DNA from: Eledone cirrhosa | Lineage: Eukaryota | NCBI GenBank assembly: GCA_964016885.1 | Contig: OZ024742.1 | Location: forward strand, 23,188,001 to 23,252,000 | Direction: 5' to 3' | DNA length: 64,000 nt | Shown here: positions 51,685 through 53,184 of the stretch, in pieces | Position numbering within the stretch: position 1 is the first letter of the stretch | Layout: each line of letters opens with the position of its first letter | Position numbers and translations under genes: made by a program | Notes under the pieces: model-generated | Told to the model about the DNA's origin: nothing | The model's input: the letters and a program-made list of their open reading frames with translations, nothing else | Database searches by the model: none

Positions 51685-52026
51685 TATATATATATATATA
51701 TAAACGGAAAAGATGAAACGAAATTTCATTTCCGACTCTTAGTACAGGTGTTACTTAAATATAAGTATGTACACGTACATGCATAAATGTATACAAACGT
51801 ACAGCAGTATGTATATATATATATATATATATATATATATATATATATATATATATATATATATATATATATATATATATACATACATGCACACATATAT
51901 ATATATGCACGTATGGATTCACCGAACATTTATTATAATGCTTGGTGTGTTTGTAAACAAACATACCGTATTAAGCCGTAGTGTCTAGCAACCATGGTTG
52001 CTCGTTTGTTCAACACTAGCAAAGGA

Positions 52027-52069
52027 ACGCTGTACTAGTTTCAAGCTTATTAGCTATCGTCAGCAACGT
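52027..52069 (-). ncRNA. Type I hammerhead ribozyme (family A), intact
   Basis: Plus strand reads acgctgtactagtttcaagcttattagctatcgtcagcaacgt. Confidence 0.88.
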
Positions 52070-52450
52070 ATACATTCCTGCCAGATTGTTGAACCTATAT
52101 ACTTACCTTATGGATATTAACGGCTGAGTAGCCCATTTTGCATATTGAGTGGGTTAATCGACCGGGTGCACCGAAAACGATAAACGGAAAAAATGAAACG
52201 AAATTTCATTTCCCTCTCTTAGTACGGCTGTTACTTAAATATAAGTATGTACACGTACATACATATCTGTATACAGACGTACAGTAGTATTTATATATAT
52301 ATATATACATACATGCACACATATATATATGTACGTATGGATTCACCGAATATTTATTATAATGCTCGGTGTGTTTGTAAACAAACATCCCGTATTAAGC
52401 CGTAGTGTCTAGCAACCATGGTTGCTCGTTTGTTCAACACTGACAAAGGA

Positions 52451-52493
52451 ACGCTGTACTAGTTTCAAGCTTATTAGCTATCGTCAGCAACGT
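52451..52493 (-). ncRNA. Type I hammerhead ribozyme (family A), intact
   Basis: Identical 43-mer to 52027-52069 and 6981-7023. Confidence 0.88.
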
Positions 52494-53184
52494 ATACCTT
52501 TCTGCCAGATGGTTGAACGTATATACTTACCTGATGCATATTAACGGCTGAGTAGCCCAATTTGCATATTGAGTGAGTTAATCGGCCGGGTGCACCGAAA
52601 ACGATAAACGGAAAAAATGAAACGAAATTTCATTTCCCATTCTTAGTACGGCTGTTAATTAAATATAAGTATGTACACGTACATACATATATGTATACCG
52701 ACGTACAGTAGTATTTATATATATATATATATATATATATATATATATATATATACATACATGCACACATATATATATATGTACATATGGATTCACCGAG
52801 CATTATAATAAATGTTCGGTGAATCCATACGTACATATATATATGTGTGCATGTATGTATATATATATATATACATACTACTGTACGTCTGTATACATAT
52901 ACGTATGTACGTGTACATACTTATATACATATATATATATATATATATATATATATATATATATATATATATATATATATATACATATATATATATATAT
53001 ATATATATATATATATATATATATATATATATATATATACATATATATATATATATATATATTTATATATATATATATATATATATATATATACATATAT
53101 ATATATATACATATATATATATATATATATATATATATATATATATATATATATATATATATATATACGTAGATAGCGGTTGGA

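What the first reader, a model, noticed from the sequence alone, without database searches (positions are those of the whole stretch)
51702..52925. Independent second insertion of the same ribozyme repeat, with the same terminus and a strand switch inside an internal hairpin
Seen: both loci begin (TA)n-aacggaaaa.atgaaacgaaat, so the HHR-sense strand ends at ...ttccgtt running into (TA)n. That end is roughly 270-330 nt downstream of the nearest cleavage site. Two fully intact HHRs lie 424 nt apart. At 52789-52826 the orientation flips exactly within the unit's own caccga/tcggtg stem. Inference: this is a mobile element rather than a local satellite, priming at a fixed site that anneals to (TA)n, and inversion arises by template switching at RNA or cDNA hairpins.
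Basis: partly seen in the sequence, partly recalled or inferred. Interest (0 to 1): 0.78.

Follow-up and report, generated by a model that had tools for sequence, protein, structure and literature searches.

The report
Two-armed hammerhead retrozyme, hairpin junction
This is one of thousands of insertions of a small non-coding jumping repeat that carries a self-cutting RNA motif; its two back-to-back arms end at two fixed points in TA repeats, which likely means a Penelope-type enzyme copied one RNA, probably a ring, from both sides of a DNA break and the two copies were then joined, here at a hairpin that is a recurrent but minority joining spot.

Summary
Observation confirmed. 51703-52926 is 2.4 copies of a 424-nt non-coding unit with a minimal type I hammerhead (minus strand) plus a 133-nt inverted arm, inside (TA)n: a metazoan non-LTR retrozyme, i.e. 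a non-autonomous Penelope-like element. It is mobile, with not one but two fixed ends: T1 (3,178 exact TA-joined sites) and T2, 56-59 nt inside (1,396). Inverted insertions pair T1 with T2 (45 of 45 scored; 11 of 11 in a coordinate test; three T2/T2 exceptions found elsewhere). Either arm can be the longer, so fold-back of one cDNA cannot be the general cause. Junctions are scattered, with 1-6 nt microhomology; the caccga/tcggtg junction recurs at 14 loci, a real hotspot but a minority. Young arrays reach 20+ identical units and both arms share locus-specific variants (18 of 19), pointing to one monomer template, probably circular. Fixed ends are set by the RNA, not by annealing to (TA)n (3-5 nt only). 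Cleavage, circles and the partner enzyme are untested. Kind, tail and two start sites are published; the scan reported the two-arm/one-circle reading before on other DNA of this genome. New here: the hairpin census.

The parts
51682..51702 (.). left (TA)n target tract
   Evidence: sequence; 71 of 79 T1 ends follow >=10 nt of TA
51703..52799 (-). T1 arm: unit 1 (51703-52182, TA tract expanded), unit 2 (52183-52606), partial unit 3 (positions 1-167); ribozyme-sense RNA is the minus strand
51703..51758 (-). 'tail': 56 nt between fixed ends T1 and T2 (59 if the ATA overlap is counted), with an 8-bp hairpin; present at this end only
52002..52094 (-). minimal type I hammerhead 1 (core 52063-52033, predicted cut after 52033... 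GUA^); changes in distal stem I
52426..52518 (-). minimal type I hammerhead 2 (core 52487-52457; long bulged stem I, U.U-based stem II, 1-bp stem III with palindromic CUAG loop)
52794..52821 (.). inversion junction: 6-nt microhomology CACCGA/TCGGTG of the unit's own hairpin, loop carried by the T2 arm
52794..52926 (+). T2 arm: inverted unit positions 189 to 57, tail-less, ending at the second fixed terminus
52927..53167 (.). right (TA)n tract, shared with a neighbouring element
6714..8878 (.). sister insertion of the same family (443-nt variant): 0.9-unit T1 arm, 4-unit T2 arm, junction at 389/70, not at the hairpin

Best explanation
The locus is an older insertion of a still-young 424-nt hammerhead retrozyme family whose two inverted arms end at two fixed sites in (TA)n, and it was likely made by a Penelope-type RT-endonuclease that cut both target strands, primed one RNA monomer (probably circular) at both sites, and left two cDNAs that were likely joined by microhomology, here at the unit's own hairpin. 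Shown: non-coding tandem unit with conserved hammerhead, dispersal, two fixed ends, T1/T2 pairing, independent arm lengths, scattered microhomology junctions, array-wide shared variants, 10-14-nt target duplications at non-TA sites. Inferred: (1) transcripts self-cleave at GUA^ and the 424-nt monomer is ligated to a ring (untested; about 0.6); (2) a GIY-YIG PLE protein, probably a dimer, binds the tail region and nicks both strands of (TA)n with a stagger (about 0.85); (3) each 3'-OH primes at one of the two sites flanking the tail with 3-5 nt of pairing, and both RTs run round the same template for 0.1 to 20+ turns (about 0.7); (4) the two same-sense cDNAs meet head to head and are joined by microhomology-mediated end joining with fill-in, the CACCGA/TCGGTG stem being the favourite 6-nt handle, possibly helped by RT pausing (about 0.75); if only one arm survives, a one-armed 5'-truncated array results.
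For: Ends: 87 of 93 insertion chains have an outer end at T1 or T2; 3,178 and 1,396 exact TA-joined sites, controls 0; TA-joined T1/T2 ends also in short-read contigs of run X1 (possibly the source sample) and of X5 and X8, which bear other organism labels. Pairing: 45 of 55 two-arm chains have both ends fixed and all 45 are T1/T2; 11 of 11 convergent pairs on C1 1-103 Mb, P=8e-5 if independent. T2 arm longer in 21 of 45. Junction microhomology >=2 nt in 11 of 14 clean young junctions (18% expected, p=1.4e-6); 6 more young junctions carry inserted, partly templated bases. One template: arms share their haplotype in 18 of 19 young loci (shuffles mean 5.2, max 12); L114 has its own variant in 18 of 18 units covering it, L009 in 5 of 5, L038 in 6 of 6. 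No scar at the ribozyme cut site: 2 indels in 248 crossings, 2.9 expected. Hammerhead under constraint: common changes only at N7 (C 435/T 46) and in loop 2, plus a U.G to G.U swap in stem I (14 of 486 copies). TSDs of 12, 14 and 10 nt at L031, L187, L188 (by eye). RT+GIY-YIG elements in the same genome also end in TA at two sites about 55-60 nt apart, one per arm in inverted copies. In vitro a PLE protein cuts and extends both strands, starts at two internal sites that bound the tail and is predicted to dimerise (PMC11167929).
Against: Three T2/T2 insertions exist (L197, L200, L202), and L105 mixes haplotypes between and within arms. Shared haplotypes could come from two RNAs of one donor active in one cell, and identical units could come from a long homogeneous linear transcript; sequence alone cannot show a ring. 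PMC11167929 found no difference in start site between top and bottom strand and found that ribozyme cleavage was not needed in vitro. Minimal hammerheads cleave poorly in vitro (PMC4209133 abstract) and 8 of 9 Xenopus retrozyme dimers showed no cleavage (10.64898/2026.07.22.740005). No PLE sharing sequence with this unit was found in 45 GIY-YIG loci examined of 10,597 first-look candidates. Some arrays are clearly amplified at DNA level (C12 array; L203). Loci were chosen by likeness to the queries, not at random, except in the coordinate test.
Confidence: 0.62

Rival explanations
1. Same PLE machinery and dual priming, but the template is a long uncleaved linear multimer transcribed from a homogeneous donor array (or from an excised DNA circle), not an RNA ring.
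For: Unprocessed RNA was the dominant substrate for the anole PLE in vitro (PMC11167929). Long arrays exist as possible donors (C12 array >29 kb). In the young set 8 of 44 cDNA ends fall in the 20 nt before the cut site (p=0.001 for that window, 0.085 for any window), as run-off at a cleaved 5' end would give.
Against: New variants appear in all units of an array, not one in n, which needs a monomer bottleneck each generation; the pile-up is absent from the older set (3 of 91) and would also arise if a ring self-cleaved during copying; sampled long daughters lack the deletion units of the C12 array.
Confidence: 0.22
2. One reading: one cDNA folds back at a hairpin (or the RT switches strand there) and copies itself, which makes the inverted arm.
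For: The CACCGA/TCGGTG junction recurs at 14 loci, most with sub-unit arms; L197 and L200 are symmetric T2/T2 palindromes; L198 has only the loop flipped. Palindromes at PLE inverted junctions were read as self-priming in PMC3846280 (passages).
Against: Arms end near each other in 8 of 54 junctions, chance 10.3; the T2 arm is longer in 21 of 45; at the hairpin the loop sits on the T2 arm in 6 and on the T1 arm in 3 of the 9 clear T1/T2 cases, and the ends stay asymmetric; in this locus the loop is on the 133-nt arm, which cannot template a 2.4-unit arm. A hybrid (T2 cDNA folds back, then anneals to the T1 cDNA) remains possible for the hairpin subset.
Confidence: 0.1
3. A local satellite or segmental duplication amplified and inverted by DNA repair, with no RNA step; or an assembly fold-back artefact.
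For: DNA-level amplification does occur at a few loci (C12 higher-order array, duplicated insertions in L203).
Against: Thousands of dispersed sites with two fixed ends and random far ends, unrelated flanks, TSDs, conserved ribozyme, diverged arms at this locus.
Confidence: 0.03

Closest known systems
Metazoan non-LTR retrozymes (Cervera and de la Pena 2020, PMC7229834: passages plus text parts 2 and 4 of 6; Li, Clavereau, Pollet 2026, 10.64898/2026.07.22.740005: parts 1-3 of 5, all main text before the references; supplements closed)
   Same: Non-coding 150-450-nt tandem unit, one type I hammerhead per unit, low GC, TSDs longer than 4 nt, U.U at the base of stem II and palindromic loop 3 as in axolotl variants, PLEs in the same genome; circle-templated tandem cDNA is their proposed route.
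   Different: In the parts read they describe no fixed double termini, no inverted two-arm arrays, no (TA)n targeting and no array-wide private variants; the 2026 preprint also entertains local tandem expansion by unequal crossover. Circles and cleavage were shown there, not here.
EN+ Penelope-like element insertions with partial tandems, inverted 5'-truncated copy and one-sided tail (PMC8557442 and PMC3846280, passages only; PMC11167929, parts 1-2 of 4)
   Same: Head-to-head arms, tail at one end only, AT/(TA)n targets, 9-14-nt TSDs, microhomology joins, two internal RT start sites that bound the tail.
   Different: No ORF; tail 56-59 nt rather than 30-40; up to 20+ identical units per arm; the data favour two target-primed cDNAs joined end to end over the self-priming reading of PMC3846280; strict one-site-per-arm pairing is not stated in the passages read.
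L1 twin priming (recalled, no paper read)
   Same: Both target ends prime cDNA on one RNA and the products are joined by microhomology, giving an inversion.
   Different: There the second site is a chance internal match and the arms cover non-overlapping parts of the RNA; here the second site is fixed and both arms cover the same sequence many times.

Membership tests
Metazoan non-LTR retrozyme | Short (150-450 nt) tandem unit without LTR, PBS, PPT or ORF | tested here: met
   424-nt period; no ORF of 220 aa or more over the locus; PBS/PPT not searched separately
Metazoan non-LTR retrozyme | Type I hammerhead in every unit, two in a row intact | tested here: met
   cores at 52063-52033 and 52487-52457; core intact in 440 of 486 copies, 241 of 244 in young stretches; no Rfam match
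Metazoan non-LTR retrozyme | Dispersed multi-copy family with TSDs longer than 4 nt | tested here: met
   TSDs of 10-14 nt at three non-TA sites; not resolvable inside (TA)n
Metazoan non-LTR retrozyme | Self-cleavage and expression as linear and circular monomer RNA | not testable with these tools
   needs in vitro cleavage and RNase R/northern or RT-PCR
Non-autonomous EN+ Penelope-like element | Fixed 3' ends with optional tail at one end, variable 5' truncation, inverted second copy | tested here: met
Non-autonomous EN+ Penelope-like element | Insertion bias for AT-rich or (TA)n targets | tested here: met
   71 of 79 T1 and 64 of 76 T2 hits follow TA tracts; about 6 of the 12 T2 misses are false internal hits
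Non-autonomous EN+ Penelope-like element | Sequence relationship to the pLTR of an autonomous RT+GIY-YIG partner | tested here: inconclusive
   RT+GIY-YIG elements with the same end architecture are present but none of 45 loci examined shares sequence with the unit; 10,597 candidates exist
Autonomous PLE | RT and GIY-YIG ORF | tested here: not met
   no tblastn hit of three PLE proteins in the window

The most novel reading that the evidence does not exclude
These arrays are a genomic record of rolling-circle reverse transcription of a self-made circular RNA by a two-headed Penelope enzyme: both subunits load on one ring on either side of the tail, each primed by one end of the cut (TA)n, and chase each other round; the inverted structures of PLEs in general then come from joining two target-primed cDNAs, not from self-priming, with hairpins acting only as favoured microhomology handles.
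Probability: 0.45. Interest if true: 0.78.

Novelty: new member of a known kind. Interest (0 to 1): 0.52.

Why it matters
How retrozyme circles get into genomes, and why Penelope-like elements leave tandem/inverted copies with a one-sided tail, are stated open questions (PMC7229834 discussion; PMC8557442 passages). This family is young and abundant enough to test both by counting: strict T1/T2 pairing, free arm lengths and array-wide variants favour two primings on one monomer, and the hairpin census separates end joining from the published self-priming idea. It supplies a 424-nt natural substrate for an in vitro assay of circle-templated, double-ended TPRT. The locus itself is an ageing copy (its units differ by about 8%) with no sign of a host function.

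Tried and rejected
Rfam: no hammerhead at gathering level or at E<=5; only TA-driven microRNA hits. Run search: no RNA holder listed; X18, guessed RNA, held only a 35-nt piece; no evidence either way. Laying contigs on the hairpin junction failed: the tool skipped 52705-52860 as repeats, so the junction is not confirmed in reads. Presence/absence could not be tested because contigs break in TA tracts. Partner search: no sequence match in 45 GIY-YIG loci. Pile-up of cDNA ends before the cut site: seen in the young set only, not robust to a scan over windows. Left out of the tally: the C12 array, L058 (rearranged) and L081 (cut by the stretch); two of the 45 T1/T2 chains are short or old and doubtful (second chain of L049, first of L100) and one abuts a run of N. 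L112 was left out of the haplotype table by oversight; it is concordant. Tables were entered by hand. Literature: searches listed no paper on this family or on strict one-site-per-arm pairing; subscription papers and supplements (including Supplementary Fig. S9 of PMC7229834, Fig. S2 of PMC11167929 and the preprint's closed files) were not seen and may bear on novelty.

Full report
Observation. The stretch lies in a 3.0-Gb animal genome (earlier scan notes call it octopod, which I did not test). It holds a 424-nt tandem unit: unit 1 at 51703-52182, unit 2 at 52183-52606, positions 1-167 of unit 3, then positions 189 to 57 inverted (52794-52926), all between (TA)n tracts. The minus strand carries a minimal type I hammerhead per unit: long bulged stem I, CUGACGA, U.U plus 4-bp stem II, GAAA, one-pair stem III with a palindromic CUAG loop, GUA^. 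Rfam does not detect it, but across 486 copies in 93 stretches the only common changes are at N7 and in loop 2, with a U.G to G.U swap in stem I in 14 copies, and the core is intact in 440 of 486 (long arrays weigh heavily). The sister locus at 6714-8878 has unrelated flanks and its own array-wide variants.

A mobile family with two fixed ends. A unit search gave 2,324 first-look candidates, 40 scored. From three queries I decomposed 93 insertion chains; 87 have an outer end at unit position 1 (T1) or 54-57 (T2). Genome-wide there are 3,178 exact (TA)n-T1 and 1,396 exact (TA)n-T2 words, controls 0. Inner ends are spread over the unit, as for 5' truncation. Overlap with the target is only ATA (T1) and ATATA (T2), so the sites are fixed by the RNA, not by annealing. 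Three non-TA sites show 10-14-nt duplications. TA-joined T1 or T2 ends also occur in short-read contigs of X1 (maybe the source sample), X5 and X8.

Inverted copies pair T1 with T2. Of 55 two-arm chains, 45 have both ends at a fixed site and all 45 are T1/T2; 10 have one end elsewhere. In a test that uses only coordinates (first 100 T1 and 44 T2 words on C1), 11 of 11 convergent pairs within 8 kb are T1/T2 (P=8e-5). Exceptions: T2/T2 at L197, L200 and L202; no T1/T1 was seen. By eye the same asymmetry holds for 4 of 5 scorable two-arm copies of a second retrozyme family and for inverted copies of ORF-linked PLE families A (5 of 5) and B (1 of 1) and of two further end families (3 of 3). This is the PLE 'tail present at only one end' (PMC8557442, PMC3846280, passages), which PMC11167929 (parts 1-2 of 4) maps to two internal RT start sites.

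The junction. The T2 arm is the longer in 21 of 45 loci, in 6714-8878 four units against one, so one arm cannot be a copy of the other. Arm ends lie within 40 nt of each other in 8 of 54 junctions, chance 10.3. Of 20 young junctions, 14 are clean with 1-6 nt microhomology (>=2 nt in 11, p=1.4e-6) and 6 carry inserted, partly templated bases, the pattern I know from microhomology-mediated end joining (recalled). Of the 14, 9 are T1/T2 (loop on the T2 arm in 6, on the T1 arm in 3), 2 are symmetric T2/T2 and 3 are unclear. So the stem mostly acts as a 6-nt handle between two cDNAs, with real fold-back plausible in a few. PMC3846280 read such palindromic junctions as self-priming; these counts argue against that as the general route.

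One monomer as template. The youngest arrays hold up to 20+ near-identical units per arm. Variants peculiar to a locus or small group are in every unit of both arms: L114 18 of 18, L009 5 of 5, L038 6 of 6; arms agree in 18 of 19 young loci against 5.2 in shuffles; L105 is mixed. A new variant can fill an array only through a one-unit bottleneck. Repeated end-to-end jumping on a cleaved linear monomer should scar the cut site; 248 crossings show 2 indels, 2.9 expected. A ring fits best, as proposed in PMC7229834, but a homogeneous linear multimer or two RNAs from one donor are not excluded, and no RNA evidence could be had.

Mechanism. Likely: transcript, self-cleavage and ligation to a 424-nt ring; a PLE RT-GIY-YIG dimer binds the tail, nicks both strands of (TA)n, primes at T1 and T2 and runs round; the two cDNAs are joined by microhomology and filled in. 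RT+GIY-YIG elements with a Cys-rich linker (Neptune-like by the definition in PMC8557442) are abundant, but no partner sharing sequence was found in 45 loci. This locus is older (units about 8% apart) yet keeps two cores in register.

Novelty. A new family of a known kind. Kind, tail, inversion and two start sites are in print; strict pairing, single-template evidence and the hairpin census were not found in the papers and searches listed. The scan reached the two-arm/one-circle reading earlier on other DNA of this genome, probably for this same family; I formed and tested it before that look-up, and those notes are not independent support.

Noticed in passing
window 53175-53343 (+): 5'-truncated copy of a second, 323-nt hammerhead retrozyme family (core 53194-53225, GAAA UGCA UA^) in the same TA tract; 875 first-look candidates; it also has two ends about 40 nt apart.
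   Followed up: partly
window 50800-51690: Third TA-inserted tandem family, 611-nt unit, 1.45 copies, one fixed end and preferred other ends at unit 334 and 381; 2,112 candidates; no ordinary hammerhead found, a rearranged one was not looked for.
   Followed up: partly
G000 C12:20,406,100-20,435,912 (L165, L046, L047): Array of this unit longer than 29 kb with recurring deletion units and mixed haplotypes: secondary satellite-like growth.
   Followed up: partly
L203 (C1:19.62 Mb): Whole two-arm insertions duplicated with their flanks, i.e. local DNA duplication after insertion.
   Followed up: no
L105/L162 (C1:392.89 Mb): Young two-arm array whose T2 arm changes haplotype after 13 units; template switch or a second insertion joined in register.
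   Followed up: partly
L198 (C9:6,654,498): Only the 16-nt loop of the CACCGA/TCGGTG hairpin is inverted inside an otherwise direct unit.
   Followed up: no
L147, L148, L152 and others: PLE family A has a hammerhead-like end with UUGAAAA in place of CUGANGA, conserved across many copies.
   Followed up: no
flanks of young loci L110, L114, L115, L116: TA flanks with periodic interruptions repeated many times on one or both sides, suggesting slippage expansion of the target at or after insertion.
   Followed up: no
window 8898-8987: Extra short plus-strand fragment of the unit (about positions 62-148) just beyond the T2 end of the sister locus.
   Followed up: no
window 1-5001: Broken LINE-like element with endonuclease- and RT-region frames, judged by eye.
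   Followed up: no
window 24524-24589 (-): Weak tRNA match, probably a tRNA-derived SINE.
   Followed up: no
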